Source: a virus (lineage: Duplodnaviria; Heunggongvirae; Uroviricota; Caudoviricetes). From it: a stretch of 11,785 bases of DNA. Where the stretch lies: the IMG/VR virus record IMGVR_UViG_2695420482_000004. One strand, given 5' to 3'. The position numbers and the translations under genes are program-made. The number at the start of each line of letters is the position of its first letter. The first letter of the stretch is position 1. Positions 1-11,785 of the stretch are shown here, piece after piece. The notes beneath the pieces are model-generated. The model ran no database searches. It saw only the letters and a list, made by a program, of their open reading frames with translations, and was not told where the DNA came from.

Positions 1-106
<106 letters not shown>

Positions 107-237
107 GAGTCGGAATGAAGCCAGGGCATTTGAGGATATGAACCCGGTTGACGGTCTGGATGAAATGCTGGTCAGCGTAAATGCAGCAAATCCGTTGAAT
201 AACTTTAAAGATACGAAAGGCAAAGAGGAAAAGAACG

Positions 238-837
238 ATGAATGACCGTGAAACGCGCTGTTACAGCGGGGAGGTGCGGGCGGAACAATATGATAATGCC
301 CCGACCCACATTCTGGGGTATGGCTCGGTATTTAACAGTCGTTCAGAACCTCTGTGGGGATTTCGTGAAATCATCAAGCCGGGGGCTTTTGATGATGTAC
401 TGAATGATGATGTACGTGGCTTGTTTAATCATGATCCTAATTTCATTCTCGGACGAAGTTCTGCCGGCACGTTGTCATTGTCGGTGGATGAACGCGGTTT
501 ACGTTATGACATTGTTGCACCGGATACTCCGACTATTTGTGACCTGGTGCTGTCTCCAATGTTGCGTGGTGACATTAATCAGTCCTCGTTCGCGTTTCGT
601 GTCGCCCGTGACGGAGAGAGCTGGTATGAAGACGACGAGGGGATTGTTATCCGGGAAATCACGCGCATTTCTCGTCTGTATGACGTCAGCCCGGTGACAT
701 ATCCGGCCTATCAGGACGCAGACTCTGGTGTCCGCTCAATGAAAGCCTGGCAGGAAGCGCGGGCGAGTGGTGCGCTGAAGAAAGCTGTTAACGAACGAAT
801 GGCGCGTGAGCGTCTTTTGACCCTTCTTAATGCATAA
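238..837 (+). CDS. Prohead maturation protease, HK97 family (peptidase S78-like)
   Basis: 199-aa ORF with ATG start preceded by AGAGGA about 8 nt upstream. The frame is closed by TGA at 196-198, so 238 is the first possible start. Protein carries the conserved His-containing block (GLFNHDPNFILGRS) typical of HK97 gp4-type proteases, and sits immediately 5' of the major capsid gene. Family assignment is from motif recall, not a search. Confidence 0.85.
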   Translation: MNDRETRCYSGEVRAEQYDNAPTHILGYGSVFNSRSEPLWGFREIIKPGAFDDVLNDDVRGLFNHDPNFILGRSSAGTLSLSVDERGLRYDIVAPDTPTICDLVLSPMLRGDINQSSFAFRVARDGESWYEDDEGIVIREITRISRLYDVSPVTYPAYQDADSGVRSMKAWQEARASGALKKAVNERMARERLLTLLNA

Positions 838-851
838 GGATACTACTGACG

Positions 852-2069
852 ATGAAACTTCATGAGATGAAGCAAAAACGAAACACCATTGCAAAGGATA
901 TGCGTGCACTGCATGAAAAAATTGGTGATAACGCATGGACTGATGAGCAACGGGCAGAGTGGAACAGGGCGAAAGCTGAGCTGGATGCGCTGGATGAGCA
1001 AATCGCCCGTGAAGAAGAGTTGCGCCGTCAGGATCAGGCATATGTGGATGAGTCCGGGCCGGAAGAGCGCCAGAATAATGAGGCGGAGAACGGGAAAAAG
1101 GCGGTGGAAGAGAAGCGTGCTGCGGCATTTAACCGTTTTCTGCGTGCCGGATTTGCAGAACTGAATGCTGAAGAGCGTAATCTGATGCGTGAACTGCGGG
1201 CTCAGAGTGTAACAACGGATTCTCAGGGCGGATATACGGTGCCCACGCAGATGCGTAACAAAATCATTGACACCATGAAGGCTTATGGCGGGATTGCCAG
1301 TGTGGCGCAACTTCTGACCACATCAACCGGGCAGGATATCACCTGGTCAACGTCTGATGGCACGACTGAAGAGGGCGAACTGCTGGCGGAAAATACAGCC
1401 GCAACGGAACAGGATGTGACGTTCGGGACCGCTATTCTGGGGGCTAAAAAGCTGTCATCAAAAATAATTCGTGTGTCCAATGAGCTGCTCCAGGACAGTG
1501 GGGTGGATATTGAATCTTATCTGGCAAACCGTATTGCCCAGCGTATTGGTCGTGGAGAGGCAAAATATCTGGTTCAGGGGACCGGAACGGGATCACCGTT
1601 ACAGCCAAAAGGGCTGGCAGCGTCGGTGACGGGAACCATCCAGACTGCAGCCTCTGCCGCTTTCACCTGGAAAGAAATGAATGCCCTGAAACATGCCATT
1701 GATCCGGCATATCGTGGTGGGCCGAAATACCGCTGGGCATTCAATGATGCCACATTGCAGACTATTGAAGAGATGGAGGATGGACAGAAACGCCCGTTAT
1801 GGCTGCCGGATATTGCAGGCGGTACGCCGGCTACTGTGCTGGGGATCCCTTATGTTATTGATCAGGCTATTGACGGGATTGGTACCGGAAAAAAATTCAT
1901 TTTCCTGGGGGATTTCAACCGCTTTATCATTCGCCGCGTTACTTATATGGAACTGAAACGTCTGGTTGAGCGTTATGCTGAGTTTGATCAGGTGGCATTT
2001 CTGGCTTTCCATCGTTTTGACTGTGTGCTGGAAGATGTGGCAGCCATCAAGGCGCTCACTGGCAAATAA
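852..2069 (+). CDS. Major capsid protein, HK97 fold, with N-terminal delta (scaffolding) domain
   Basis: 405-aa ORF. Residues 1-120 are charged, K/E/R-rich and coiled-coil-like (delta domain), followed by the GGYTVP motif typical of the mature HK97-fold start. Position directly after the protease matches HK97-type head modules. The nearest upstream AGGA is about 11 nt from the ATG. Confidence 0.9.
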   Translation: MKLHEMKQKRNTIAKDMRALHEKIGDNAWTDEQRAEWNRAKAELDALDEQIAREEELRRQDQAYVDESGPEERQNNEAENGKKAVEEKRAAAFNRFLRAGFAELNAEERNLMRELRAQSVTTDSQGGYTVPTQMRNKIIDTMKAYGGIASVAQLLTTSTGQDITWSTSDGTTEEGELLAENTAATEQDVTFGTAILGAKKLSSKIIRVSNELLQDSGVDIESYLANRIAQRIGRGEAKYLVQGTGTGSPLQPKGLAASVTGTIQTAASAAFTWKEMNALKHAIDPAYRGGPKYRWAFNDATLQTIEEMEDGQKRPLWLPDIAGGTPATVLGIPYVIDQAIDGIGTGKKFIFLGDFNRFIIRRVTYMELKRLVERYAEFDQVAFLAFHRFDCVLEDVAAIKALTGK

Positions 2070-2090
2070 CCACTCGTTGTTCAGTTACAG

Positions 2091-2112
2091 ACCGCGCCGA
2101 CGCGGTTTTTTT
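2091..2112 (+). terminator. Intrinsic terminator-like hairpin plus T7 tract after the major capsid gene
   Basis: ACCGCG (2091-2096), loop CCGA, CGCGGT (2101-2106), then seven T (2106-2112), 22 nt after the capsid stop. A second 6-bp GC hairpin (GCCCGC 2115-2120 / GCGGGC 2129-2134) lies directly before the connector RBS. Confidence 0.55.
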
Positions 2113-2145
2113 ATGCCCGCACAGTGTTGCGGGCAGGAGTTTCTG

Positions 2146-2463
2146 ATGGCAGCAATAGTGGAAAAACTCAGGGCGCAGTGCCGTATTGATACAGATGATG
2201 CAACTGATGATGAGTTACTGATGCTGTATTTCCGGGCTGCCTGCCGCAAGGCAGAAAATTTTATCAACCGTAAGCTTTATGAGGAGACGGTGCCGGAAGG
2301 TGATCCTGAAGGGGTGCTTATAGCTGATGATGTTTTGCTGGCGCTCATGTTGCTGGTCGGGCACTGGTACGAAAACCGGGAAAATTCCTCAGATGTCAGC
2401 AAGGCACCAGTCCCGTTTGGTTTTTCTTCTCTGCTGGAGCCTTATCGTTTTATTCCTTTGTAG
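2146..2463 (+). CDS. Head-tail connector protein (HK97 gp6-like)
   Basis: Start chosen at ATG 2146 with AGGAG at 2135-2139 (6-nt spacer). The longer ORF from 1966 overlaps the capsid gene and the terminator, and the in-frame ATG at 2113 sits in the T-tract with no RBS. 105-aa acidic protein with the LLxLYxxAA / WYENRE pattern typical of gp6-like connectors. Confidence 0.7.
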   Translation: MAAIVEKLRAQCRIDTDDATDDELLMLYFRAACRKAENFINRKLYEETVPEGDPEGVLIADDVLLALMLLVGHWYENRENSSDVSKAPVPFGFSSLLEPYRFIPL

Positions 2464-2471
2464 GAGGAGGC

Positions 2472-2810
2472 ATGCAGGCGGGCAGATTACGTGATCGCGT
2501 AATTATTCTGAATGTCACCACCGCCCGCTCTCCGTCAGGGCATCCGGTGGAGACGGTGACGGAGGGAGCTACCGTATGGGCAGAAGTTAAGGGTATCAGC
2601 GGGAGGGAGATAATCTCAGGCGGAGCAGAAACCGCTCAGGCTACGGTCAGAGTCTGGATGAGATTCCGGCGAGATGTAACAGCAACTTCATGTCTAAAAG
2701 TGCTGACCGGTGCATTTAAAGGGGCCATTCTGGGTATAGAAGGTCCACCAATACCGGATGCACGCGCTACCCGGCTTGAAATACTCTGCAGCCTGAAGGG
2801 GAATGTGTGA
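2472..2810 (+). CDS. Head closure / head-tail joining protein
   Basis: 112-aa ORF with a strong RBS (AGGAGGAGG at 2462-2470) before ATG 2472. Size, position (second gene after capsid) and pattern (RxRVxI...VWAEV...GRE...VRVWMRFRRDV) fit the head-tail joining family. Confidence 0.7.
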   Translation: MQAGRLRDRVIILNVTTARSPSGHPVETVTEGATVWAEVKGISGREIISGGAETAQATVRVWMRFRRDVTATSCLKVLTGAFKGAILGIEGPPIPDARATRLEILCSLKGNV

Positions 2811-3256
2811 TGGATTTCAGTCTTGATTTTTCTGGCCTGGCGGATATTGCACGGGATTTGGAGACGCTCAGCAGGGCAGAAAACAATAAGGTTCTGCGCG
2901 ATGCCACCCGTGCCGGTGCTGAAGTTATGCGGGATGCAGTTGTTGAACGTGCGCCAGAGCGAACCGGGAAACTGAAGAAAAATGTGGTTGTTCTCACTCA
3001 GCGTTCAAAGCGTCGGGGGGAAATTATCTCGGGTGTCCACATTCGCGGACGGAACCTGCGAACCGGAAACAGTGATAACAGCATGAAAGCCAGCGATCCC
3101 CGAAATGCATTTTACTGGCGCTTTGTGGAGCTGGGAACGATAAACATGCCCGCGCATCCATTCATTCGCCCGGCTTTCGATACGACAGAGGAGCTGGCGG
3201 CGCAGGTTGCCATACAGCGAATGAATCAGGCTATTGATGAGGTCTTAAGTAAATGA
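2810..3256 (+). CDS. HK97 gp10-like tail component protein
   Basis: ORF opens at GTG 2807 and ATG 2810. The ATG overlaps the upstream stop (TGATG), suggesting translational coupling. About 148 aa with the ERAPERTGKLKK motif characteristic of the HK97 gp10 family. Start could be 2807 or 2810. Confidence 0.65.
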   Translation: MDFSLDFSGLADIARDLETLSRAENNKVLRDATRAGAEVMRDAVVERAPERTGKLKKNVVVLTQRSKRRGEIISGVHIRGRNLRTGNSDNSMKASDPRNAFYWRFVELGTINMPAHPFIRPAFDTTEELAAQVAIQRMNQAIDEVLSK

Positions 3257-3597
3257 GGGAGGCCACACTGTATTCCCTGTTGTCTCAGCTGGCCGGAGGA
3301 CAGGTTTATCCTTATGTGGTCCCGCTGACGGAGGGAAAGCCTGCGGTATCTCCGCCGTGGCTGGTGTTTTCTGTGGTGTCTGACACGGTATCTGATGTGC
3401 TTGATGGGCAGGCTGAATCCAGAATTACCGTGCAGATCGATGTCTGGGCGACAGTACCTGATGACGCAGATAATATTCGTGAGCAGGCGCTTGATGCGGT
3501 AAGAAAACTGGCACCCTCCGTTATTTCTAAAACGCAGGGTTATGATCCTGACTCCCGTCTGAGCAGAGCCACGCTTGAATTCCAGGTAATAGCCTGA
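3253..3597 (+). CDS. Tail completion / tail terminator-like protein (DUF3168-like)
   Basis: 114-aa ORF whose ATG overlaps the upstream stop (ATGA at 3253-3256). Last small gene before the major tail protein, which is the usual place for the tail terminator/completion protein. Family call is by position and composition only. Confidence 0.55.
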   Translation: MREATLYSLLSQLAGGQVYPYVVPLTEGKPAVSPPWLVFSVVSDTVSDVLDGQAESRITVQIDVWATVPDDADNIREQALDAVRKLAPSVISKTQGYDPDSRLSRATLEFQVIA

Positions 3598-3617
3598 GGT
3601 CATTAATGATTTTACCC

Positions 3618-3645
3618 ACCCGCCGCTGGCGGGTTTTTTTATTTT
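3618..3645 (+). terminator. Intrinsic terminator-like hairpin plus T-tract upstream of the major tail protein gene
   Basis: ACCCGCC (3618-3624), loop GCT, GGCGGGT (3628-3634), then T7 (3634-3640) and ATTTT. It is followed by AGGAG (3647-3651) and ATG 3658. Confidence 0.5.
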
Positions 3646-3657
3646 CAGGAGACGAGT

Positions 3658-4362
3658 ATGTCCTCTAATTTTGAGCGTTCGCAACTGACGAAAATTATGA
3701 TTTCGTCTGCACCGGTAACAGCAGAAACCCTGGATTCTGCCAGCTATCTTGGCCTGAGCTGTACAATCAAAGAGGTGCAGTTTACCGCAGGACAAAAGCA
3801 GGATATTGATGTCACCACGCTGTGTTCTGTTGAGCAGGAAAATATTAACGGTCTTGGGGCTGCTTCAGAGATTTCCATGTCAGGCAACTTTTATCTGAAT
3901 GCTGCCCAGAACGCGTTGCGCAGTGCCTATGACAATGACACCACGTATGGCTTTAAAGTTATTTTTCCGTCAGGCAACGGATTTACCTTTATGGCAGAGG
4001 TGCGTCAGCATACCTGGTCTGCAGGAACCAATGGTGTTGTGGCTGCAACGTTTTCTCTGCGCCTGAAAGGTAAGCCTGTGCTGACGACAGAGCCGCTGAA
4101 AGTGAAGGTCGATTTAAAAAGCACGCTGCGGGTTGCTTCCGGAGCGAAACTTGAAATGGCGGTTGAGGCTGTGGGTGGTGTGCCGCCTTATTCTTATGCC
4201 TGGAAAAAAGGTGGTTCTCCTGTTTCCGGACAGACGGCGGCAACGTTCAGTAAGGCATCAGCAGCATCCGGTGATGCCGGTGCGTATACCTGCGAGATTT
4301 CTGATTCAGCGAGCCCGGTTAACAAAGTGACCTCCACTTCCTGCACTGTAACCGTCAGTTAA
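3658..4362 (+). CDS. Major tail (tube) protein with C-terminal Ig-like domain
   Basis: 234-aa ORF with AGGAG 6 nt upstream of the ATG. It is the gene immediately 5' of the G/GT chaperone pair, the canonical position of the major tail protein. The C-terminal ~85 residues (GGVPPYSYAWKKGG...AGAYTCEISD...TVTVS) look like an Ig-like (I-set-type) domain, as seen on many siphovirus tail tube proteins. Confidence 0.85.
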   Translation: MSSNFERSQLTKIMISSAPVTAETLDSASYLGLSCTIKEVQFTAGQKQDIDVTTLCSVEQENINGLGAASEISMSGNFYLNAAQNALRSAYDNDTTYGFKVIFPSGNGFTFMAEVRQHTWSAGTNGVVAATFSLRLKGKPVLTTEPLKVKVDLKSTLRVASGAKLEMAVEAVGGVPPYSYAWKKGGSPVSGQTAATFSKASAASGDAGAYTCEISDSASPVNKVTSTSCTVTVS

Positions 4363-4376
4363 TGAGGATGGATGTG

Positions 4377-4748
4377 ATGACTAAAAATATCCGTAATCTG
4401 GCACTGGCAACGATGTCGGGGTTTCGCCATAAAACCGTTGATGTGCCTGAATGGGAGGGAGCAACGGTTGTGTTACGGGAACCTTCTGCAGAAGCCTGGT
4501 TGCGCTGGCAGGAGATCGTTAAAGCAAAAGATGATGAGACACCGTTATCCGTTGCGGAGCGCGCCCGCCGAAATCTGGAGGCAGATGTTGAACTGTTCAT
4601 TGATGTTCTGTGTGATACCGGACTGCAACCCGTATTTTCAGAGGATGATCGTGAACAGGTGATTGCCGTGTATGGCCCGGTGCATGCGCGGCTTCTTCGG
4701 CAGTCTCTGGAACTGATCAGTGATGCCGGCGAGGTTAAAAAAAAGTAG
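4377..4748 (+). CDS. Tail assembly chaperone (lambda gpG analogue)
   Basis: ORF is open from ATG 4362, which overlaps the major tail protein stop (TAATG). I prefer ATG 4377 (or GTG 4374) because GAGGA at 4364-4368 gives an 8-nt spacer. It ends with KKK-stop on an A8G run that forms the slippery site, and sits between the major tail and tape measure genes. Confidence 0.75.
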   Translation: MTKNIRNLALATMSGFRHKTVDVPEWEGATVVLREPSAEAWLRWQEIVKAKDDETPLSVAERARRNLEADVELFIDVLCDTGLQPVFSEDDREQVIAVYGPVHARLLRQSLELISDAGEVKKK

Positions 4749-5050
4749 CGCTTCCGGGGATGCGTTTTCTGATGATGCTGGCGCTCAGGATGGGGCGCAC
4801 ATTGTCAGAGTTACGCCGGGAAATGTCCGCATCAGAAATCATGATGTGGGCAGAATTTGACAGGTTCAGCCCGCTGGGGGACGAACGGGCTGATTTCCGG
4901 GCTGCCCAGATTGTTTCAGCTGTTTACGGTGCGCAGGGGGTCAAAGTGTCACTGAATGATGCGCTTCTTCAGTGGGAGAAGGAGCAGACAGAAGGCGCTT
5001 CAGATCCATTTGCCGGACTGGAAAACGCGCTTTTAATAGTGTCTCAGTGA
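4377..5050 (+). CDS. Tail assembly chaperone G-T fusion (product of -1 frameshift at 4739-4745)
   Basis: Joining the G frame through the AAG codon (4743-4745) to the -1 frame from 4745 gives a fusion of about 224 aa, ending at TGA 5048-5050. The conserved G/GT arrangement upstream of the tape measure gene in siphoviruses supports this. Confidence 0.6.
4739..4745 (+). other. Programmed -1 ribosomal frameshift slippery heptamer A AAA AAG
   Basis: X XXY YYZ heptamer in the G zero frame, 1 nt before the G stop (TAG 4746-4748). The -1 frame is closed by TAA at 4736-4738 and opens exactly at the slip site, then runs to 5050. Confidence 0.65.
4745..5050 (+). CDS. T-frame segment of the GT fusion (lambda gpT-like extension); probably not independently initiated
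   Basis: The -1 frame is open from 4739. The ORF track reports it from ATG 4760 (96 aa), but there is no convincing RBS before 4760. It is best read as the frameshift extension of G. Confidence 0.5.
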   Translation, partial: VALPGMRFLMMLALRMGRTLSELRREMSASEIMMWAEFDRFSPLGDERADFRAAQIVSAVYGAQGVKVSLNDALLQWEKEQTEGASDPFAGLENALLIVSQ

Positions 5051-5058
5051 GTCAACAT

Positions 5059-5080
5059 AACCGCTTCGGCGGTTTTTTTT
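5059..5080 (+). terminator. Intrinsic terminator-like hairpin plus T8 tract between GT and the tape measure gene
   Basis: AACCGC (5059-5064), loop TTCG, GCGGTT (5069-5074), with a T8 run at 5073-5080, directly before the tape measure RBS. Confidence 0.5.
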
Positions 5081-5090
5081 CGTCCGGAGA

Positions 5091-8000
5091 ATGAGTGTGG
5101 CGACATTACGTGAACTGATTATTAAAATCTCGGCAAATTCCCGGTCATTCCAGTCAGAGATCTCCCGGGCTTCGCGTATGGGGCAGGATTACTACCGTAC
5201 CATGCAGAACGGAGGCCGGCAGTCCGCTGCTGCATCCCGTGAAATGCGGCGTGCACTGGCAGAAGTGACGGATCAGATAAATACAGCTAAATCTTCGGCA
5301 CTGAATATGGCGGGGGCATTTGCCGGGGCTTTTGCTACCGGTCATCTTATTTCTCTCGCCGATGAGTGGAATTCAGTAAATGCCCGTCTGAAGCAGGCCT
5401 CACAGTCCAGTGATGATTTTCAGGTATCACAACGTGAATTAATGGCGATCAGCCAGAGAACGGGGACGGCGTTTTCTGATAACGCCAGCCTTTTTGCCCG
5501 TTCTGCAGCTTCCATGCGGGAGTATGGTTACAGTTCTGAGGAGGTACTGAAAGTCACCGAGGCGATCTCCACGGGCCTGAAATTATCCGGTGCCAGTACA
5601 GCAGAAGCCAGTTCGGTGATCACGCAGTTCAGTCAGGCACTGGCGCAGGGAGTGCTGCGCGGTGAAGAGTTTAACTCGGTGAATGAGAGCGGTGATCGTG
5701 TTATTCGTGCGCTGGCTGCGGGAATGGGCGTTGCCCGTAAGGATCTGAAGGCCATGGCGGATAACGGAAAACTAACCGCCGATAAGGTTGTTCCTGCACT
5801 GATTAGTCAGCTTGGGGCGTTGCGTGATGAATATGCAGCAATGCCTGATACGGTTTCATCCTCTGCAACCAAAGTTGAAAACGCCTTTATGGCCTGGGTT
5901 GGTGGTGCGAACGAGGCAAGCGGAGTGACGAAGACGCTCTCCGGGGTGCTGAATGGTCTTGCAGGCAATATTGATACCGTGGCAACCGCTGCCGGTGCTC
6001 TGGTTGCCGTCGGGGTAGCCCGATATTTTGGCAATATGGCGTCTTCTGCTGGATCTGCAACTGCCGGATTAATTACTGCAGCCAGAAACGAAGTGGCTCT
6101 TGCTGAAGCGCAACTTCGGGGGACACAGATAGCAACCGCCAGGGCGCGTGCGGCGGTTTATCGTGCGCAACAGGCGGTTGTTGCTGCTCGCGGTACCGAA
6201 AGGCAGGCCGCAGCAGAAGCGAAGCTGACAGCTGCTCAGGCGTCACTTACCCGTAATATTGCGGCCAGAACAGCGGCACAGACAACGCTGAATACTGTCA
6301 CGTCAGTGGGGAGTCGTCTGTTAAGTGGTGCGCTGGGGTTGGTTGGTGGTGTGCCGGGACTCGTCATGCTGGGGGCGACGGCCTGGTACACGATGTATCA
6401 GAATCAGGAGCAGGCCAGAGAATCTGCACGCCAGTATGCCGCAACAATCGACGAAATTCGCCAGAAAACGTCGGCAATGTCGCTTCCTGAAGCGTCAGAT
6501 AATGAGGAAAAGACGCGGCAGGCACTTGATGAGCAAAACAGGTTAATTGACGAGCAGAAAAGTAAGATTAAATCCTTACAGGAAAAAATTGCTGGCTATC
6601 AGTATGTGCTGGCAAACCCGGGCTGGACAACCGATAACGGTTTTATGATTAACCACATGACGTCGGTAAAAACTGTCACAGAAGGGCTTGCAGAAGCAAC
6701 AAATCAACTGGCAGTTGAACAGTCCCGTCTCACACAAATGCAGGGCAAAGCGCAATCCATTCAGGATGTGCTTGCCGGGCTGGAGGAGCGACGGGTAGCG
6801 TTGATCCGTCAACAGGCCGCGGAACAAAACAAAGCGTATCAGTCCCTGTTGATCATGAATGGGCAGCATACCGAGTTTAATCGCCTTCTCGGGCTCGGTA
6901 ATGAATTACTTCAGCAGCGACAGGGGCTGGTGAATGTACCGTTACGGCTACCACAGGCAACCCTGGATGATAAACAGCAGACTGCACTGAATAACAGCGA
7001 GCGCGAACTGGCTCTGTCCCGCCTGAAGGGGGAAGCCCGTGAGCGTGCCCGCCTGGGTTATGCTGCGGATGATCTCGGCTTTGTGGGAGAGGCGTATCAG
7101 ACAGCCAGACAGAATTATATCAATAACTCACTGGATGCCTGGCGAAATAACCAGGCAAATAAACCCAAAGCGCATAAAAAGACCGAAGCGGAAAAAACAG
7201 AAGATATTTATAAACGGCTGATTAAACAGCAAAAAGAACAAATAGCACTGGCAGGGCAGAATACTGAACTGGCTAAGATGAAATATCAGGTCAGTCAGGG
7301 CGAATTATCAACCCTGTCAGAAGCGCAGAAAAAAACGCTTTTGCAGAATGCAGCACTCATCGACCAGAAAAAGATTCGTGAGCAGCTTGCTGCGTATGAA
7401 AGCAGCCTGGCGGACAGTAATGCCAGTGCCCGGGCATCTGACGACGCGCAGTTACTGGGATATGGTGAAGGCTCACGGATGCGTGAACGACTCCAGGAAA
7501 TGTGGAGTATCCGGCATGAGTTTGAGCAGAAAAATAACGAGCTTCTGAGACAGTATCAGGCCGGAGAAATTGAAGAAGCCCTGTGGAAACAGGAGAAAGA
7601 ACTGAATAAAAAATATCTGGAAGAGCGTCTCAGCGATCAGCAGGATTATTATGCAAAGGCCGATGCTTTACGTAATAACTGGAATGCAGGACTCCAGGAG
7701 GGGCTGACCAACTGGGCAGACAGTGCCACCGATTATGCTTCGCAGGCGGCAGATGCTGTCGTTTCCACTATGGACGGACTGGTATCAAATATTTCCGATG
7801 CACTGGCCGGAAATGTTGTGGACTGGAGAAACTGGGGGAGTTCAGTTCTCCGGGAAGTTTCAAAAATTCTGATGAATGCGGCCATTGTTAACGGACTGAA
7901 GTCACTCTCCGGTGCCGGAGGGTGGCTTGGTACGGTCGGCGGATGGATTTCGGGGGCGGTGGCAAACGCAAAAGGTGGTGTTTACACATCGGCAAATCTG

Positions 8001-8324
8001 AGTGCTTACAGTAACACTATTGTGGATACACCGACGTATTTTGCTTTTGCGAAAGGTGCCGGGCTGATGGGCGAGGCCGGGCCTGAAGCTATCATGCCAC
8101 TGACACGGGCAGCGGACGGCTCTCTTGGGGTCAGAGCCATTGGCAATGTGAATAGTGGCGGGGGGGTTGTTTATTCTCCCGTGTATCACATCAGCATTCA
8201 GAATCAAGGGAGCAATGGCGAGATAGATGCGCGCTCAGCCAGGGGATTGGTGGATCTGATCGACAGCAGGGTTGTGTCAATTATGCAGTCATCGCGTCGG
8301 GATGGAGGATTGTACAGTGCCTGA
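5091..8324 (+). CDS. H: Tail tape measure protein (lambda gpH family C-terminus)
   Basis: 1077-aa ORF immediately after G/GT. Long alpha-helical, Ala/Gln/Glu/Lys-rich coiled-coil composition with internal hydrophobic segments. The C-terminal region (NWRNWGSSVLREVSKILMNAAIVNGL ... RRDGGLYSA) resembles my recollection of the lambda gpH C-terminal domain. Start may be ATG 5091 (GGAG only 1 nt upstream) or GTG 5097 (7-nt spacer). Confidence 0.9.
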   Translation: MSVATLRELIIKISANSRSFQSEISRASRMGQDYYRTMQNGGRQSAAASREMRRALAEVTDQINTAKSSALNMAGAFAGAFATGHLISLADEWNSVNARLKQASQSSDDFQVSQRELMAISQRTGTAFSDNASLFARSAASMREYGYSSEEVLKVTEAISTGLKLSGASTAEASSVITQFSQALAQGVLRGEEFNSVNESGDRVIRALAAGMGVARKDLKAMADNGKLTADKVVPALISQLGALRDEYAAMPDTVSSSATKVENAFMAWVGGANEASGVTKTLSGVLNGLAGNIDTVATAAGALVAVGVARYFGNMASSAGSATAGLITAARNEVALAEAQLRGTQIATARARAAVYRAQQAVVAARGTERQAAAEAKLTAAQASLTRNIAARTAAQTTLNTVTSVGSRLLSGALGLVGGVPGLVMLGATAWYTMYQNQEQARESARQYAATIDEIRQKTSAMSLPEASDNEEKTRQALDEQNRLIDEQKSKIKSLQEKIAGYQYVLANPGWTTDNGFMINHMTSVKTVTEGLAEATNQLAVEQSRLTQMQGKAQSIQDVLAGLEERRVALIRQQAAEQNKAYQSLLIMNGQHTEFNRLLGLGNELLQQRQGLVNVPLRLPQATLDDKQQTALNNSERELALSRLKGEARERARLGYAADDLGFVGEAYQTARQNYINNSLDAWRNNQANKPKAHKKTEAEKTEDIYKRLIKQQKEQIALAGQNTELAKMKYQVSQGELSTLSEAQKKTLLQNAALIDQKKIREQLAAYESSLADSNASARASDDAQLLGYGEGSRMRERLQEMWSIRHEFEQKNNELLRQYQAGEIEEALWKQEKELNKKYLEERLSDQQDYYAKADALRNNWNAGLQEGLTNWADSATDYASQAADAVVSTMDGLVSNISDALAGNVVDWRNWGSSVLREVSKILMNAAIVNGLKSLSGAGGWLGTVGGWISGAVANAKGGVYTSANLSAYSNTIVDTPTYFAFAKGAGLMGEAGPEAIMPLTRAADGSLGVRAIGNVNSGGGVVYSPVYHISIQNQGSNGEIDARSARGLVDLIDSRVVSIMQSSRRDGGLYSA

Positions 8325-8658
8325 GCCTGAAGTTTTTAACTGGATCCCCCGTGAGGGGATGGAGACGACACGAAAGCCATCAGTTATTACGGTAAAGTTT
8401 GGTGACGGATATGAACAGCGACGGGCTGGTGGTCTGAATGCGGATCTGAAAACGTTTAAACCGGTATTTCGTGTCACAGATGAATATTCCCGTGCCGCGC
8501 TGGACAGTTTTTTATCCCGTCATGCCGGGATTCGTGCTTTTTTGTGGCGTCCGCCAAAACACAACAGGACTGTCCGGGTTGTCTGCAGGGAGTGGAGCAT
8601 TTCGGATAATGCCATGTATACCGATTTTAACTGTACCTTTGAAGAGGTCACTCACTGA
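8317..8658 (+). CDS. M: Minor tail protein M (tail tip)
   Basis: Frame is open from TTG 8272, but that would overlap the tape measure gene by about 50 nt. In-frame ATG 8302 and GTG 8317 are better candidates; GGAGG at 8304-8308 gives an 8-nt spacer to 8317. Contains the KFGDGYEQR...GLNADLKT block recalled from lambda gpM. Stop overlaps the L start (TGATG). Confidence 0.8.
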   Translation: MPEPEVFNWIPREGMETTRKPSVITVKFGDGYEQRRAGGLNADLKTFKPVFRVTDEYSRAALDSFLSRHAGIRAFLWRPPKHNRTVRVVCREWSISDNAMYTDFNCTFEEVTH

Positions 8659-9356
8659 TGCAGGATATACAGCAGGAAACACTCAATGAGTGCACTAAAA
8701 CGGAGCAATCCGCGCTGATCGTGCTCTGGGAAGTCGATCTGACAGAGGTCGGCGGAGAACGTTATTTTTTCTGTAATGAGCAGAACGAAAAAGGTGAGTC
8801 GGTCACCTGGCAGGGGCGACAGTATCAGGCGTACCCTATTCAGGGAAGCGGCTTTGAGATGAACGGCAAAGGAGCCAGTGCAAGACCAACGCTGAAAGTC
8901 TCTAACCTGCACGGCATGGTCACCGGGATGGCGGAAGACCTGCAGAGTCTGGTCGGCGGAACGGTGGTCAGGCGTAAGGTTTACGCCCGTTTTCTGGATG
9001 CGGTGAACTTCGTCAACGGAAACAGTGACGCCGATCCGGAGCAGGAGGTGATCAGCCGCTGGCGCATCGAGCAGTGCAGCGAACTGAGCGCGGTCAGTGC
9101 CTCCTTTGTGTTGTCCACACCGACGGAAACGGATGGTGCCGTTTTTCCGGGGCGCATCATGCTGGCCAACACCTGCACCTGGATCTACCGCGGCGATGAG
9201 TGCGGTTATGATGGCCCGGCTGTCGCGGATGAATATGACCAGCCAACGTCCGATATCACGAAGGATAAGTGCAGCAAATGCCTGAGTGGTTGCAAGTTCC
9301 GCAATAACGTCGGCAATTTTGGCGGCTACCTTTCCATTAACAAACTTTCGCAGTAA
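8658..9356 (+). CDS. L: Minor tail protein L (tail tip, Fe-S cluster-binding Cys motif)
   Basis: 232-aa ORF, the same length as lambda gpL, and near-identical to it along its length by recall. C-terminal cysteines at residues 173, 182, 205, 208 and 212. Confidence 0.9.
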   Translation: MQDIQQETLNECTKTEQSALIVLWEVDLTEVGGERYFFCNEQNEKGESVTWQGRQYQAYPIQGSGFEMNGKGASARPTLKVSNLHGMVTGMAEDLQSLVGGTVVRRKVYARFLDAVNFVNGNSDADPEQEVISRWRIEQCSELSAVSASFVLSTPTETDGAVFPGRIMLANTCTWIYRGDECGYDGPAVADEYDQPTSDITKDKCSKCLSGCKFRNNVGNFGGYLSINKLSQ

Positions 9357-9361
9357 ATCCC

Positions 9362-10105
9362 ATGACAGAGACAGAATCAGCGATTCTGGCGCACGCCCGG
9401 CGATGTGCGCCAGCGGAGTCGTGCGGCTTCGTGGTGAGAACGCCGGAAGGGGAAAGATATTTTCCCTGCGTGAATATCTCTGGTGAGCCGGAGGAGTATT
9501 TCCGGATGTCGCCGGAGGACTGGCTGAGTGCAGAAATGCAGGGAGAGATTGTGGCGCTGGTCCACAGCCACCCCGGTGGTCTGCCCTGGCTGAGTGAGGC
9601 CGACCGGCGGCTGCAGGTGCAGAGTGATTTGCCGTGGTGGCTGGTCTGCCGGGGGGCGATTCATAAATTCCGCTGTGTGCCGCATCTCACCGGGCGGCGC
9701 TTTGAGCACGGGGTGACGGACTGTTACACGCTGTTCCGGGACGCTTACCATCTGGCGGGAATTGAGATGCCGGATTTTCATCGCGGGGATGACTGGTGGC
9801 GTCACGGCCAGAATCTCTATCTGGATAATATGGAGGCAACGGGGTTGTATCAGGTGCCGTTGTCAGCGGCCCAGCCGGGCGATGTGCTGCTGTGCTGTTT
9901 TGGTTCATCGGTGCCGAATCATGCCGCCATTTACTGTGGCGACGGCGAGCTGCTGCACCATATTCCTGAACAACTGAGTAAACGAGAGAGGTACACCGAC
10001 AAATGGCAGCGACGCACACACTCCCTCTGGCGTCACCGGGCATGGCACGCATCTGCCTTTACGGGGATTTGCAACGATTTGGTCGCCGTATCGACCTTCG
10101 TGTGA
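9362..10105 (+). CDS. K: Tail assembly protein K (N-terminal MPN/JAB metallopeptidase-like plus C-terminal NlpC/P60 cysteine peptidase-like)
   Basis: 247-aa ORF. JAMM-type motif HSHPGG...SEAD at residues 68-81 with an upstream AESCG element at 18-22. A Cys (GVTDCYTLF) and His (PNHAAIY) pair in the C-terminal half is consistent with NlpC/P60. From the internal Met (ATG 9506, GAGGAG 9 nt upstream) the sequence matches the 199-aa lambda K by recall. The longer form from ATG 9362 includes the N-terminal MPN elements and is preferred. Confidence 0.85.
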   Translation: MTETESAILAHARRCAPAESCGFVVRTPEGERYFPCVNISGEPEEYFRMSPEDWLSAEMQGEIVALVHSHPGGLPWLSEADRRLQVQSDLPWWLVCRGAIHKFRCVPHLTGRRFEHGVTDCYTLFRDAYHLAGIEMPDFHRGDDWWRHGQNLYLDNMEATGLYQVPLSAAQPGDVLLCCFGSSVPNHAAIYCGDGELLHHIPEQLSKRERYTDKWQRRTHSLWRHRAWHASAFTGICNDLVAVSTFV

Positions 10106-10650
10106 AAACGGGGGCTGAAGCCATCCGGGCACTGGCCACACAGCTCCCGGTGTTTCGTCAGAAACTGAATGAGGGCTGGTATCAGGTGCGCATTGCCGGG
10201 CGTGATGCAGGCGAAAATGAATTATCTGCCCGTCTTAATGAGCCGCTGGCAAATGGTGCCGTGATCCACATCGTGCCGCGTCTGGCGGGAGCTAAAAGTG
10301 GCGGTGTGTTTCAGGTGGTGCTTGGGGCGGCGCTGATTGCGGTGGCATGGTGGAACCCTGTGGGCTGGCTGGGGGCCGCGGCTGTATCGGGCATGTATGC
10401 GGCAGGGGCCAGTATGATCCTGGGCGGAGTGGCGCAGATGCTGGCACCGAAAGCCAGGACGCCCACGGCAGCCAGTACAGATAACGGCAAACAGAACACC
10501 TATTTCTCCTCACTGGATAACATGGTTGCCCAGGGCAATGTTCTGCCTGTTCTGTACGGTGAAATGCGCGTGGGGTCACGTGTGGTTTCTCAGGAGATCA
10601 GCACGGCAGACGAAGGGGATGGTGGTCAGGTTGTGGTGATTGGTCGCTGA
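10003..10650 (+). CDS. I: Tail assembly protein I (N-terminal ubiquitin-like domain, hydrophobic C-terminal region)
   Basis: 215-aa ORF. The N-terminus MAATHTLPLASPGMARICLYGDLQRFGRRIDLRVKTGAEAIRALATQLP matches lambda gpI as I recall it. Overlaps the 3' end of K by 103 nt in a different frame, as in lambda. Gly-Gly at residues 100-101 followed by a hydrophobic stretch. Confidence 0.9.
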   Translation: MAATHTLPLASPGMARICLYGDLQRFGRRIDLRVKTGAEAIRALATQLPVFRQKLNEGWYQVRIAGRDAGENELSARLNEPLANGAVIHIVPRLAGAKSGGVFQVVLGAALIAVAWWNPVGWLGAAAVSGMYAAGASMILGGVAQMLAPKARTPTAASTDNGKQNTYFSSLDNMVAQGNVLPVLYGEMRVGSRVVSQEISTADEGDGGQVVVIGR

Positions 10651-10668
10651 TGCAAAATGTTTTATGTG

Positions 10669-10700
10669 AAACCGCCTCCGGGCGGTTTTATCGTTTATGG
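10669..10700 (+). terminator. GC hairpin with weak T-tract between I and J (terminator-like or RNA processing/stability element)
   Basis: AAACCGCC (10669-10676), loop TCCG, GGCGGTTT (10681-10688), followed by TTTTATCGTTT. The T-tract is interrupted, so it is weaker than the other three. Confidence 0.35.
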
Positions 10701-10710
10701 AGCGTGAGGA

Positions 10711-11785
10711 ATGGGTAAAGGCAGCAGTAAGGGGCATACCCCGCGCGAAGCGAAGGACAACCTGAAGTCCACGCAGCTGCTGAGTGTGATCGATGCCATC
10801 AGCGAAGGGCCGGTTGAAGGTCCGGTGGATGGATTAAAAAGCGTGCTGCTGAACAGTACGCCGGTGCTGGACAGTGAGGGGAATACCAATATATCCGGCG
10901 TCACGGTGGTGTTCCGGGCCGGTGAGCAGGAGCAGACACCGCCGGAGGGATTTGAATCCTCCGGCTCCGAGACGGTGCTCGGTACAGAAGTGAAATATGA
11001 CACGCCGATCACCCGCGCCATCACGTCGGCAAACATCGACCGACTGCGCTTTACCTTCGGTGTGCAGGCACTGGTGGAAACCACCTCAAAGGGGGACCGG
11101 AATCCGTCGGAAGTTCGCCTGCTGGTTCAGATACAGCGTAATGGTGGCTGGGTGACGGAAAAAGACATCACCATTAAGGGCAAAACCACCTCGCAGTATC
11201 TGGCCTCGGTGGTGGTGGATAACCTGCCGCCGCGCCCGTTTAATATCCGGATGCGCAGAATGACGCCGGACAGCACCACAGACCAGCTGCAGAACAAAAC
11301 GCTCTGGTCGTCATACACCGAAATCATCGATGTGAAACAGGGCTACCCGAACACGGCACTGGTCGGCGTAAAGGTGGATTCGGAGCAGTTCGGCAGCCAG
11401 CAGGTGAGCCGTAATTATCATCTTCGCGGGCGTATTCTGCAGGTGCCGTCGAACTATAACCCGCAGACGCGGCAATACAGCGGTATCTGGGACGGAACGT
11501 TAAAACCGGCATACAGCAACAACCCGGCCTGGTGTCTGTGGGATATGCTGACCCACCCGCGCTACGGCATGGGGAAACGTCTTGGTGCGGCGGATGTGGA
11601 TAAATGGGCGCTGTATGTCATCGGCCAGTACTGCGACCAGTCGGTGCCGGACGGCTTTGGCGGCACGGAGCCGCGCATTACCTGTAATGCGTACCTGACC
11701 ACACAGCGTAAGGCGTGGGATGTGCTCAGTGATTTCTGCTCGGCGATGCGCTGTATGCCGGTATGGAACGGGCAGACGCTGACGT
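10711..11785 (+). CDS. J: Host specificity / central tail fibre protein J (5' partial; continues beyond window end)
   Basis: ATG 10711 with GGAG 8 nt upstream; open to the window end (358 codons, no stop). N-terminus MGKGSSKGHTPREAKDNLKSTQLLSVIDAISEGP... matches lambda gpJ by recall. It is not in the ORF track because it lacks a stop in the window. Confidence 0.9.
   Translation, partial: MGKGSSKGHTPREAKDNLKSTQLLSVIDAISEGPVEGPVDGLKSVLLNSTPVLDSEGNTNISGVTVVFRAGEQEQTPPEGFESSGSETVLGTEVKYDTPITRAITSANIDRLRFTFGVQALVETTSKGDRNPSEVRLLVQIQRNGGWVTEKDITIKGKTTSQYLASVVVDNLPPRPFNIRMRRMTPDSTTDQLQNKTLWSSYTEIIDVKQGYPNTALVGVKVDSEQFGSQQVSRNYHLRGRILQVPSNYNPQTRQYSGIWDGTLKPAYSNNPAWCLWDMLTHPRYGMGKRLGAADVDKWALYVIGQYCDQSVPDGFGGTEPRITCNAYLTTQRKAWDVLSDFCSAMRCMPVWNGQTLT

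What the first reader, a model, noticed from the sequence alone, without database searches (positions are those of the whole stretch)
9362..10650. Ubiquitin-like / JAB / NlpC-P60 processing pair in the tail tip (I and K), with a Gly-Gly after the I Ubl domain
K combines a JAMM/MPN-type metalloprotease motif (HSHPGG...SEAD with upstream AESCG) with a C-terminal papain-like NlpC/P60-type Cys/His pair. The overlapping gene I begins with a beta-grasp ubiquitin-like region that ends in SGG (residues 99-101, nt 10297-10305) just before a hydrophobic segment. This is the arrangement predicted computationally to be a prokaryotic ubiquitin-like processing system, with JAB cleaving after the diglycine. 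The mechanism in tail assembly remains poorly characterised experimentally as far as I know. The full 247-aa K ORF, not the shorter lambda-style annotation from the internal Met at 9506, is needed for a complete MPN domain.
Basis: partly seen in the sequence, partly recalled or inferred. Interest (0 to 1): 0.55.

Follow-up and report, generated by a model that had tools for sequence, protein, structure and literature searches.

The report
Lambda gpK protease and gpI plug
These are ordinary copies of phage lambda's tail-tip genes K and I, a two-domain protease and a plug protein with a removable ubiquitin-like cap; the pairing was predicted in 2006, and the cleavage has recently been reported experimentally in a conference summary.

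Summary
K (9362-10105, 247 aa) matches Prok-JAB and NlpC/P60 above Pfam's cut-offs and has a complete JAMM motif (E19; H68-S-H70-x7-S78-x2-D81) and a Cys121/His187/His199 triad. I (10003-10650, 215 aa) matches lambda gpI of the solved tail-tip structures (E = 7e-107). It has an N-terminal MoaD/SAMP-type beta-grasp domain, SGG at residues 99-101, two hydrophobic helices and the C-terminal plug domain.

The window is an E. coli lambda-like prophage. RefSeq annotates both genes with the same boundaries. The interpretation repeats Iyer, Burroughs and Aravind (2006). [quoted passage not shown] The finding is therefore already known.

Two refinements:
- Across 68 proteins from a search of 50%-identity cluster representatives, the conserved end of the ubiquitin-like domain is P92-x3-G96-A/S97. 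This aligns with the terminal Gly-Gly of MoaD. G100 and G101 are much less conserved, so the scissile bond may lie after A97.
- The short 199-aa lambda K reflects one missing G in the 1982 reference record. Three other lambda records carry the G and give 247 aa.

The role of the NlpC/P60 domain remains open.

The parts
9362..10105 (+). Gene K: 247-aa tail-tip assembly protease with a JAB/MPN+ domain and an NlpC/P60 domain. It starts 6 nt after the stop of L.
   Evidence: ORF. Pfam Prok-JAB residues 4-98 and NLPC_P60 residues 111-224. RefSeq 'C40 family peptidase' with identical boundaries. Relatives are 242-249 aa long.
9371..9655 (+). JAB/MPN+ (JAMM) metalloprotease domain of K, residues 4-98. 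The glutamate E19 is at nt 9416-9418. The HxHx7Sx2D motif, residues 68-81, is at nt 9563-9604.
   Evidence: E19, H68, H70 and D81 are invariant and S78 is present in 73 of 74 sequences (window K plus 73 homologues of 32-53% identity). The AF2 model matches PfJAMM1, Rpn11, CSN5 and AMSH.
9692..10033 (+). NlpC/P60 (C40, papain-like) domain of K, residues 111-224. Cys121 is at nt 9722-9724, His187 at nt 9920-9922 and His199 at nt 9956-9958.
   Evidence: C121, H187 and H199 are invariant in the same 74 sequences. The model matches MepS/Spr and the Acd33800 catalytic domain.
10003..10650 (+). Gene I: 215-aa tail-tip protein made of a Ubl domain, a linker, a hydrophobic helical hairpin and a plug domain. 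The start may be Met1 (10003) or Met14 (10042).
   Evidence: ORF. Matches lambda gpI in PDB 8iyk at E = 7e-107. RefSeq uses the same boundaries. Distant homologues start at the Met14 equivalent.
10042..10293 (+). Ubiquitin-like (MoaD/ThiS/SAMP-type beta-grasp) domain of I, residues 14-97. It ends in the conserved P92-x3-G96-A97 tail.
   Evidence: Pfam Lambda_tail_I residues 14-97. AF2 block-mean pLDDT above 90 over residues 11-90, with strands at 14-19, 29-33, 60-64, 67-69 and 87-92. Foldseek top hits are SAMP1, MoaD, Urm1, CysO and ubiquitin.
10288..10293 (+). G96-A97, the position equivalent to the C-terminal Gly-Gly of MoaD/ubiquitin. This is the best-conserved candidate P2-P1 of the processing site (inferred).
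   Evidence: G96 is present in 66 of 68 and A/S97 in 63 of 68 aligned homologues. A profile of the Ubl part aligns G96 with residue 73 of 74 in MoaD 3rpf_C and residue 89 of 90 in 4n6e_B, at weak E-values of 0.3-0.6.
10297..10305 (+). It lies in the linker, at the start of predicted helix H1.
   Evidence: G100 is present in 25 of 68 and G101 in 51 of 68 homologues. The AF2 helix begins at residue 100.
10300..10443 (+). Two hydrophobic helices of I: H1 at residues 100-117 and H2 at residues 128-147. In lambda these surround the C-terminus of the tape measure and are proposed to insert into the outer membrane.
   Evidence: Lambda literature: PMC11101478 and PMC10721106.
10444..10647 (+). C-terminal plug/insertion domain of I, residues 148-215. 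It is the part seen in mature lambda tail tips.
   Evidence: This region is nearly identical to the 90-residue lambda gpI chains of PDB 9e7m (E = 7e-44). Lambda residues 135-223 are modelled as a trimeric plug (PMC10721106).
10003..10105 (+). Overlap of K and I in different frames. It is 103 nt if I starts at Met1 and 64 nt if it starts at Met14.
   Evidence: The same overlap exists in lambda. K and I overlap in about half of 91 distant loci.
8658..9356 (+). Context: gene L, the tail-tip hub protein, directly upstream of K.
   Evidence: Pfam Phage_tail_L at 5e-99. RefSeq annotation.
10711..11785 (+). Context: start of gene J, the central tail fibre and host-specificity protein. It runs off the window.
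   Evidence: RefSeq 'host specificity protein J' at the corresponding position. Sequence.

Best explanation
K and I are the lambda gpK/gpI tail-tip assembly pair in an E. coli lambda-like prophage.

I is made as a precursor. An N-terminal MoaD-type ubiquitin-like domain (residues 14-97) is joined by a short Gly-rich linker to two hydrophobic helices and a C-terminal domain. Three copies of the C-terminal part become the plug inside the tail-tip cone, formed with J and L. The plug holds the C-terminus of the tape measure protein.

K is a non-structural enzyme with two active-looking peptidase domains. Its JAB/JAMM zinc-protease domain is proposed to recognise the Ubl domain as Rpn11 or archaeal JAMM1 recognise ubiquitin or SAMP. 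It lays the Ubl's C-terminal tail in its catalytic groove and cuts the Ubl off once I has joined the tip complex.

Before cleavage, the Ubl probably keeps the hydrophobic precursor soluble. It probably also blocks later assembly steps until the tip is complete.

Status of each step:
- Shown here: family membership, catalytic motifs, fold, gene linkage and conservation.
- Taken from the literature on lambda and F-pyocin: the C-terminal part is in the virion, K is not, and the Ubl is cleaved off by gpK.
- Inferred: the JAB domain rather than the NlpC/P60 domain does the cutting, and the scissile bond is most likely after G96-A97 rather than after G100-G101.
- Not explained: the substrate of the NlpC/P60 domain.
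For: - K matches Prok-JAB (8.3e-14) and NLPC_P60 (1.6e-12). I matches Lambda_tail_I (3.1e-24).
- K has exact JAMM and Cys/His/His motifs. They are invariant or nearly so in 73 distinct K homologues of 32-53% identity and in closer relatives.
- I matches lambda gpI of PDB 8iyk/8iyl/8k35/8xcg at E = 7e-107.
- The AF2 model of I has a confident beta-grasp domain, whose best PDB matches are SAMP1, MoaD, Urm1, CysO and ubiquitin.
- The AF2 model of K matches PfJAMM1 in complex with SAMP2, Rpn11, CSN5 and AMSH, and also MepS-type NlpC/P60 enzymes.
- 90 of 91 viral loci carrying distant I homologues have a JAB+NlpC/P60 ORF just upstream.
- Iyer et al. 2006 made the same prediction.
- Lambda cryo-EM places only the C-terminal part of gpI in the tip and does not find gpK in virions.
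- The lambda virion mass-spectrometry table lists one gpI peptide at 9.87% coverage. That value fits only the C-terminal tryptic peptide 202-223.
- A conference summary reports that gpK cleaves the Ubl from gpI, and only after gpI binds other tip proteins.
- In F-pyocin, the N-terminal region of PA0640 is present in stalled tips and absent from mature particles.
- For the A97 site: conservation, the MoaD alignment, the Pfam domain end at residue 97, and the statement that lambda gpI is resolved 'from position 101 onward'.
Against: - Nothing here measures cleavage in this prophage. The prophage is probably defective, because an IS100-type element cuts its portal gene.
- The experimental claim for lambda is available only as a conference summary, not as data.
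- The F-pyocin authors state that the protease for PA0640 is unidentified. They also saw spontaneous loss of the N-terminal region in E. coli without the K homologue.
- The MoaD alignment that places GG at G96-A97 rests on weak E-values of 0.3-0.6.
- G101 is still fairly conserved (75%), so cleavage after G101 is not excluded.
- Both peptidase domains are equally conserved, so sequence alone cannot say which one cuts I.
Confidence: 0.85

Rival explanations
1. The papain-like NlpC/P60 domain of K, not the JAB domain, removes the Ubl from I, as papain-fold deubiquitinases do in eukaryotes. The JAB domain would then only bind the Ubl or have another substrate.
For: C121, H187 and H199 are as invariant as the JAMM residues in 74 sequences. 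Iyer et al. [quoted passage not shown]
Against: The conference summary attributes cleavage to a gpK that 'has a deubiquitinating domain'. The JAB clade of K groups with JAB proteins linked to other prokaryotic Ubls. The closest fold matches of the NlpC/P60 part are peptidoglycan endopeptidases (MepS, Acd33800), not deubiquitinases.
Confidence: 0.1
2. The Ubl domain of I is not cleaved. It stays attached but is flexible and therefore invisible in cryo-EM maps, and K acts on something else.
For: Cryo-EM papers describe the N-terminal domain only as 'unresolved'. One of them speculates that it might be the missing cell-wall enzyme.
Against: The only gpI peptide seen in lambda virions is the C-terminal one, although the Ubl domain has several good tryptic peptides. 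The PA0640 N-terminal region is detected in stalled tips but not in mature F-pyocin. The conference summary reports cleavage. The tail-tip lumen has little room for three additional 10-kDa domains (my inference).
Confidence: 0.04
3. K is mainly a virion-associated peptidoglycan hydrolase that helps DNA entry, and its link with I is incidental.
For: The NlpC/P60 profile and fold match murein endopeptidases. The lambda enzyme that crosses the cell wall is unidentified.
Against: gpK was not detected in lambda virions by mass spectrometry or in maps. The K homologue PA0639 is absent from mature F-pyocin, and its deletion gives tip-less tubes. The JAB domain and the near-universal K-I adjacency (90 of 91 loci) would be left unexplained.
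Confidence: 0.03

Closest known systems
Phage lambda gpK / gpI (tail tip assembly proteins K and I)
   Same: Same gene order (L-K-I-J) and the same K/I overlap. I matches lambda gpI at E = 7e-107. K is closely similar to the corrected 247-aa lambda K and is 96% identical to the largest 247-aa K clusters. The domain architecture and all catalytic residues are the same.
   Different: I is 8 residues shorter, within the hydrophobic H1-H2 region. The head genes are HK97-type, not lambda-type. The lambda reference record annotates only 199 aa of K because it lacks one G.
F-type pyocin PA0639 / PA0640 (P. aeruginosa) and PDB 25vf chain 9, a gpI homologue
   Same: The I homologue has the same Ubl-linker-helices-plug layout and the motif 'IVPLVIGSKQSGLFQ'. 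The N-terminal region of PA0640 is removed before the tip joins the tube. The K homologue PA0639 is needed for the tip and is absent from mature particles.
   Different: It is a tailocin, not a phage. Similarity to the window's I is distant (E = 1e-20). The responsible protease was not identified there.
Archaeal SAMP / JAMM1 pairs (PfJAMM1-SAMP2, PDB 5lda; HvJAMM1-SAMP1)
   Same: A MoaD-type beta-grasp modifier is recognised and cut at its C-terminal tail by a minimal JAMM protease. These are the top fold matches of both window proteins.
   Different: There the Ubl is conjugated by an E1 and ends in a free Gly-Gly. Here it is translated in cis with its 'substrate', no E1 is encoded nearby, and the equivalent tail is Gly-Ala.
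Eukaryotic Rpn11 / CSN5 / AMSH with ubiquitin or NEDD8
   Same: Same JAMM motif (E, HxH, S, D) and MPN fold. The function is removal of a beta-grasp domain.
   Different: The eukaryotic enzymes cleave isopeptide bonds in large complexes. K would cleave a main-chain peptide bond once, during assembly, and it carries an extra NlpC/P60 domain.
Phage T5 pb3 plug domain
   Same: It occupies the same position in the tail-tip lumen as the C-terminal part of gpI and closes the tube (PMC10721106).
   Different: It is an insertion within the hub protein itself. That source does not describe a Ubl cap or a dedicated protease for it.

Membership tests
JAMM/MPN+ metalloproteases (Pfam Prok-JAB, PF14464) | Profile match above the curated cut-off | tested here: met
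   51.9 bits against a cut-off of 25, E = 8.3e-14, residues 4-98. A family profile also hits PDB JAMM proteins 2kks, 2kcq and 5lda.
JAMM/MPN+ metalloproteases (Pfam Prok-JAB, PF14464) | Catalytic motif: upstream Glu plus HxHx7Sx2D | tested here: met
   E19 and H68-S-H70-PGGLPWL-S78-EA-D81. E19, H68, H70 and D81 are invariant and S78 is present in 73 of 74 sequences.
JAMM/MPN+ metalloproteases (Pfam Prok-JAB, PF14464) | MPN fold | tested here: met
   The AF2 model (block-mean pLDDT about 85-93 over residues 1-40 and 89-91 over 51-70) matches PfJAMM1, Rpn11, CSN5 and AMSH at Foldseek probability 0.99-1.00. This is a predicted structure only.
JAMM/MPN+ metalloproteases (Pfam Prok-JAB, PF14464) | Zinc-dependent cleavage at the C-terminus of a beta-grasp domain | not testable with these tools
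   Reported for lambda gpK only in a conference summary (PMC12908700).
NlpC/P60 (MEROPS C40) papain-like peptidases | Profile match above the curated cut-off | tested here: met
   47.8 bits against a cut-off of 23, E = 1.6e-12, residues 111-224, covering the full profile 1-105.
NlpC/P60 (MEROPS C40) papain-like peptidases | Cys-His-(His/polar) catalytic triad | tested here: met
   C121, H187 and H199 are invariant in 74 sequences.
NlpC/P60 (MEROPS C40) papain-like peptidases | Known substrate (cell-wall peptide, or another) | not testable with these tools
   No substrate is known for gpK's C40 domain. K is absent from virions.
Lambda tail assembly protein I (Pfam PF06805; gpI) | Profile match, full-length similarity to lambda gpI, and a position between K and J | tested here: met
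   85.6 bits against a cut-off of 23.8. E = 7e-107 over residues 1-215 against PDB 8iyk_I. Gene order L-K-I-J.
ThiS/MoaD/SAMP-type ubiquitin-like beta-grasp domains | Beta-grasp fold | tested here: met
   The AF2 model has block-mean pLDDT above 90 for residues 11-90. Foldseek matches SAMP1, MoaD, Urm1, CysO and ubiquitin with target-normalised TM-scores of 0.67-0.75.
ThiS/MoaD/SAMP-type ubiquitin-like beta-grasp domains | Gly-Gly at the C-terminal end of the domain | tested here: inconclusive
   The homologous positions hold G96-A97 (Gly-Ala/Ser family-wide). A Gly-Gly occurs four residues later at 100-101 but is poorly conserved. The domain is not C-terminal; it continues into the rest of I.
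ThiS/MoaD/SAMP-type ubiquitin-like beta-grasp domains | Partner E1-like adenylating enzyme (ThiF/MoeB/UbaA) | tested here: not met
   RefSeq annotation of the identical 12-kb region lists only head and tail genes. I is therefore a structural relative of these carriers, not a sulfur carrier or conjugated modifier.
Phage-tail Ubl/JAB processing unit (Iyer et al. 2006, Table 1 row 5) | Ubl-containing I next to a K with JAB plus NlpC/P60 domains, and to J | tested here: met
   Seen in the window. Seen in 90 of 91 viral loci with distant I homologues.

The most novel reading that the evidence does not exclude
The strictly conserved NlpC/P60 domain of K has its own proteolytic target in tail assembly. 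It could be the unidentified protease that cuts the tape measure protein (gpH to gpH* plus gpHC) in its Gly-rich region, or it could make a second cut in I. K would then be a two-step maturation protease for the tail tip. Nothing here tests this. It rests on the invariance of C121, H187 and H199 and on the statement that the gpH protease is unknown (PMC12617516).
Probability: 0.08. Interest if true: 0.55.

Novelty: already known. Interest (0 to 1): 0.15.

Why it matters
It matters little as a discovery. The window holds a routine copy of a pair found in thousands of E. coli prophages: the I cluster has 6374 members and the K clusters have up to about 12,900. The pair was described computationally in 2006 and is now under experimental study in lambda and F-pyocins.

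Three practical points follow:
- The K-I pair is a clean bacterial example of a ubiquitin-like domain used as a removable assembly cap.
- Anyone mapping the processing site should consider the conserved Gly-Ala (residues 96-97) as well as the more eye-catching Gly-Gly.
- Annotations copied from the lambda reference truncate K and lose the catalytic glutamate. This can make the JAB domain look incomplete.

Tried and rejected
- **Locus searches with alignments.** The search for related loci with alignments of diverse I homologues (A4, A7) failed because no stretch was conserved enough. I used three single distant I proteins instead.
- **K-I complex model.** The structure tool takes a single chain and returns no coordinates, so I could not model the complex.
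- **Natural K-I fusions.** The K-I fusion proteins in the database (P0017, P0007, P0066, P0153, P0207, P0135) look like products of frameshifts or deletions in or near the K/I overlap. Several lack the JAB N-terminus. I did not fold them.
- **Literature.** I found no full paper or preprint behind the gpK/gpI cleavage talk and no open copy of the 8IYK paper. Papers on phages T1 and LSH1 say nothing useful about I or K homologues.
- **Lambda reference error.** I found no published note of the missing base in lambda K.
- **Solved K structure.** No K homologue has a solved structure, by single sequence or by family profile.
- **Sulfur carrier or conjugated modifier.** I rejected this reading of the Ubl because no E1 is encoded nearby and the domain is fused in cis to a structural protein.
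- **Short N-terminal-only I hits.** I considered them as natural 'free Ubl' genes and rejected them. Their C-termini are frameshifted junk or contig ends.
Full report
**What the window is**

The ORF map and Pfam scans show a lambda-type tail module:
- tape measure, 5091-8324
- M, ending at 8658
- L, 8658-9356
- K, 9362-10105
- I, 10003-10650
- J, starting at 10711

Bases 107-11785 are 100% identical to a prophage in E. coli EC32. The K-I stretch is 90-98% identical to many lambdoid phages such as mEp460.

**Checking the observation**

A script confirmed every coordinate:
- AESCG starts at K residue 18, so the glutamate is E19.
- HSHPGGLPWLSEAD spans residues 68-81, an exact HxHx7Sx2D motif.
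- Met49 is at nt 9506.
- C121 lies in DCY, H187 in NHAAIY and H199 in LLHHIP.
- SGG is I residues 99-101, nt 10297-10305.

The segment after SGG is hydrophobic. AlphaFold2 predicts helices at 100-117 and 128-147.

The profile matches are well above the curated cut-offs:
- Prok-JAB: 51.9 bits against 25
- NLPC_P60: 47.8 bits against 23
- Lambda_tail_I: 85.6 bits against 23.8

**Protein I**

I aligns over its whole length with lambda gpI from the solved tail-tip structures 8iyk, 8iyl, 8k35 and 8xcg (E = 7e-107). It also aligns with the 90-residue C-terminal chains of 9e7m.

I predicted its structure with an alignment of 60 homologues. The model has a confident N-terminal domain, with block-mean pLDDT above 90 over residues 11-90. 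Its best PDB matches are SAMP1, MoaD, Urm1, CysO and ubiquitin. The ubiquitin-like assignment therefore holds, and the domain is of the MoaD/ThiS branch.

**Protein K**

The AlphaFold2 model matches two groups of solved structures:
- JAMM proteases: PfJAMM1 bound to SAMP2, Rpn11, CSN5 and AMSH
- NlpC/P60 endopeptidases: MepS and Acd33800

No K homologue has a solved structure, whether searched by single sequence or by family profile.

Residues 1-40 of K are modelled with mean pLDDT of about 85-93 per 10-residue block and include E19. Full-length relatives are 242-249 aa long. The long ORF is the real gene.

**Why lambda's K is annotated short**

In NC_001416/J02459, K is 199 aa and starts at the internal Met, 148 nt after the end of L. 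Aligning the DNA shows that the reference lacks one G: GGAGGC-TAT in the reference against GGAGGCGTAT elsewhere. Three other deposited lambda genomes (PV340536, LC730321, KT232076) carry the G. So, judging by match length, do DE3, HK629, HK630 and the imm21/imm434 hybrids. With the G, lambda K is 247 aa and starts MTQTES.

Only four records share the deletion. Two are the reference pair J02459 and NC_001416. The other two are OR474059 and OR974322. The 'lambda-style' short K therefore comes from the old record, either as a reading error or as a stock-specific mutation. I found no published note of this.

**Linkage and conservation beyond close relatives**

I used three distant I homologues (34-44% identical to the window's I) to fetch 97 viral loci. 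Of the 91 loci with at least 900 nt upstream, 90 have an ORF with both JAB and NlpC/P60 domains just upstream of I. The remaining one has JAB only.

These loci gave 73 distinct K homologues of 32-53% identity. With the window K included (74 sequences), E19, H68, H70, D81, C121, H187 and H199 are invariant, and S78 is present in 73 of 74. Both peptidase domains therefore look active and selected.

**Where the Ubl domain ends**

I aligned 68 I-family proteins drawn from a search of cluster representatives. The conserved tail after the last strand is P92 (68/68), three variable residues, G96 (66/68) and A/S97 (63/68). Position 98 is then Gly or Lys, followed by a linker of variable length before the hydrophobic helix.

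G101 is present in 51 of 68 sequences and G100 in only 25 of 68.

Several other lines point the same way:
- Pfam's domain ends at residue 97.
- A profile of the Ubl part aligns G96 with the penultimate residue of MoaD 3rpf_C (73 of 74) and of the ThiS/MoaD protein 4n6e_B (89 of 90). The E-values are weak (0.3-0.6), but they agree with the fold matches.
- 'IVPRLAGA' parallels the MoaD-type ending, which I recall as 'FPPVxGG'.
- One lambda paper states that gpI is resolved 'from position 101 onward' in the closed tail (PMC11101478). That would not fit a cut after G101.

I conclude that the Gly-Gly equivalent is G96-A97 and that A97|K98 is the better candidate scissile bond. This is an inference, not a measurement.

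**What is already known**

- Iyer, Burroughs and Aravind (2006, PMC1779556) described the Ubl domain of 'TAPI' and the JAB plus NlpC/P60 domains of 'TAPK'. They noted the conserved adjacency with J, the Gly-rich linker and a conserved C-terminal glycine. They predicted that JAB releases the Ubl by cutting there.
- Lambda cryo-EM studies place residues 134/135-223 of gpI (or 101-223) as a trimeric plug holding the C-terminus of the tape measure. They did not find gpK in virions.
- The lambda virion mass-spectrometry table lists one gpI peptide at 9.87% coverage. Only the C-terminal tryptic peptide 202-223 gives that value. No Ubl peptide was seen.
- A summary of an October 2025 conference talk by A. 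Davidson says that gpK cleaves the Ubl from gpI's structural domain, and only after gpI binds other tip proteins. This enforces the order of assembly (PMC12908700).
[quoted passage not shown] Deleting the gpK homologue PA0639 gives tip-less tubes. The protease itself was left unidentified.

**Mechanism and rivals**

The best-supported account is the known one. I is made with a Ubl cap that keeps the hydrophobic precursor soluble and blocks later steps. Once I sits in the J-L tip, K's JAB domain removes the cap and K leaves.

The rivals are much less likely, for the reasons given in their entries:
- the NlpC/P60 domain does the cutting
- there is no cleavage, only a flexible domain
- K is a virion lysin

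The substrate of the NlpC/P60 domain is the real open point. One unexcluded idea is that it cuts the tape measure protein, whose protease is unknown.

**Verdict**

Two small corrections may help others: the Gly-Ala at 96-97 as the conserved Ubl end, and the missing base behind lambda's short K. Interest is low.

Noticed in passing
L002:867/868 (NC_001416 between 14266 and 14267); equivalent to window 9495-9496: The lambda reference record (J02459/NC_001416) lacks one G in gene K that is present in three other lambda genome records; DE3, HK629, HK630 and the imm21/imm434 hybrids show the same one-base-longer match. The deletion splits K into a 76-aa ORF and the annotated 199-aa K. With the G, lambda K is 247 aa.
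   Followed up: partly
window 10003, 10042, 10102: Three start codons are used for I in public annotations: Met1 (215/223 aa; RefSeq, UniProt, PDB), Met14 (200-aa entries) and Val34 (190 aa in PV340536). Distant homologues all begin at the Met14 equivalent (MxTVxLYG). A Val34 start would delete the first strand of the Ubl. The Met1 ATG is fixed anyway by K's conserved Lys-Trp in the overlapping frame.
   Followed up: partly
window 1-106: The first 106 bases are not phage DNA. They are identical to the end of an IS21-family IS100kyp element (istB end), present in many copies in E. coli chromosomes and plasmids. Related prophages carry the portal gene at this position, so this prophage is probably defective.
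   Followed up: yes
window 4739-4745 (G 4377-4748; T 4772-5050): The tail chaperone pair has the classic -1 slippery heptamer A AAA AAG just before the stop of the G-like gene. The DUF4035 (T-like) ORF continues in the -1 frame. This is the conserved G/GT programmed frameshift.
   Followed up: partly
proteins P0017, P0002, P0007, P0066, P0135, P0153, P0207, P0236: Public databases hold many K-I 'fusion' proteins of 335-430 aa. They switch from the K frame to the I frame in or near the K/I overlap, or carry deletions. They look like products of indels or assembly errors, not real fusions.
   Followed up: partly
L021, L024, L090, L091, L093, L096-L098, L100 (gap of about 570-750 nt); L025: In one lineage of distant relatives, K and I are separated by about 570-750 nt, room for another gene. 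In L025 the upstream ORF has only a JAB domain.
   Followed up: no
protein P0326 (2783 aa): A very long repetitive protein gives 23 separate matches to I residues 10-45 (motif like FGDFENLSRRMDLKVFADVIRA). It looks like a translated tandem repeat, and its relation to the Ubl domain is unexplained.
   Followed up: no
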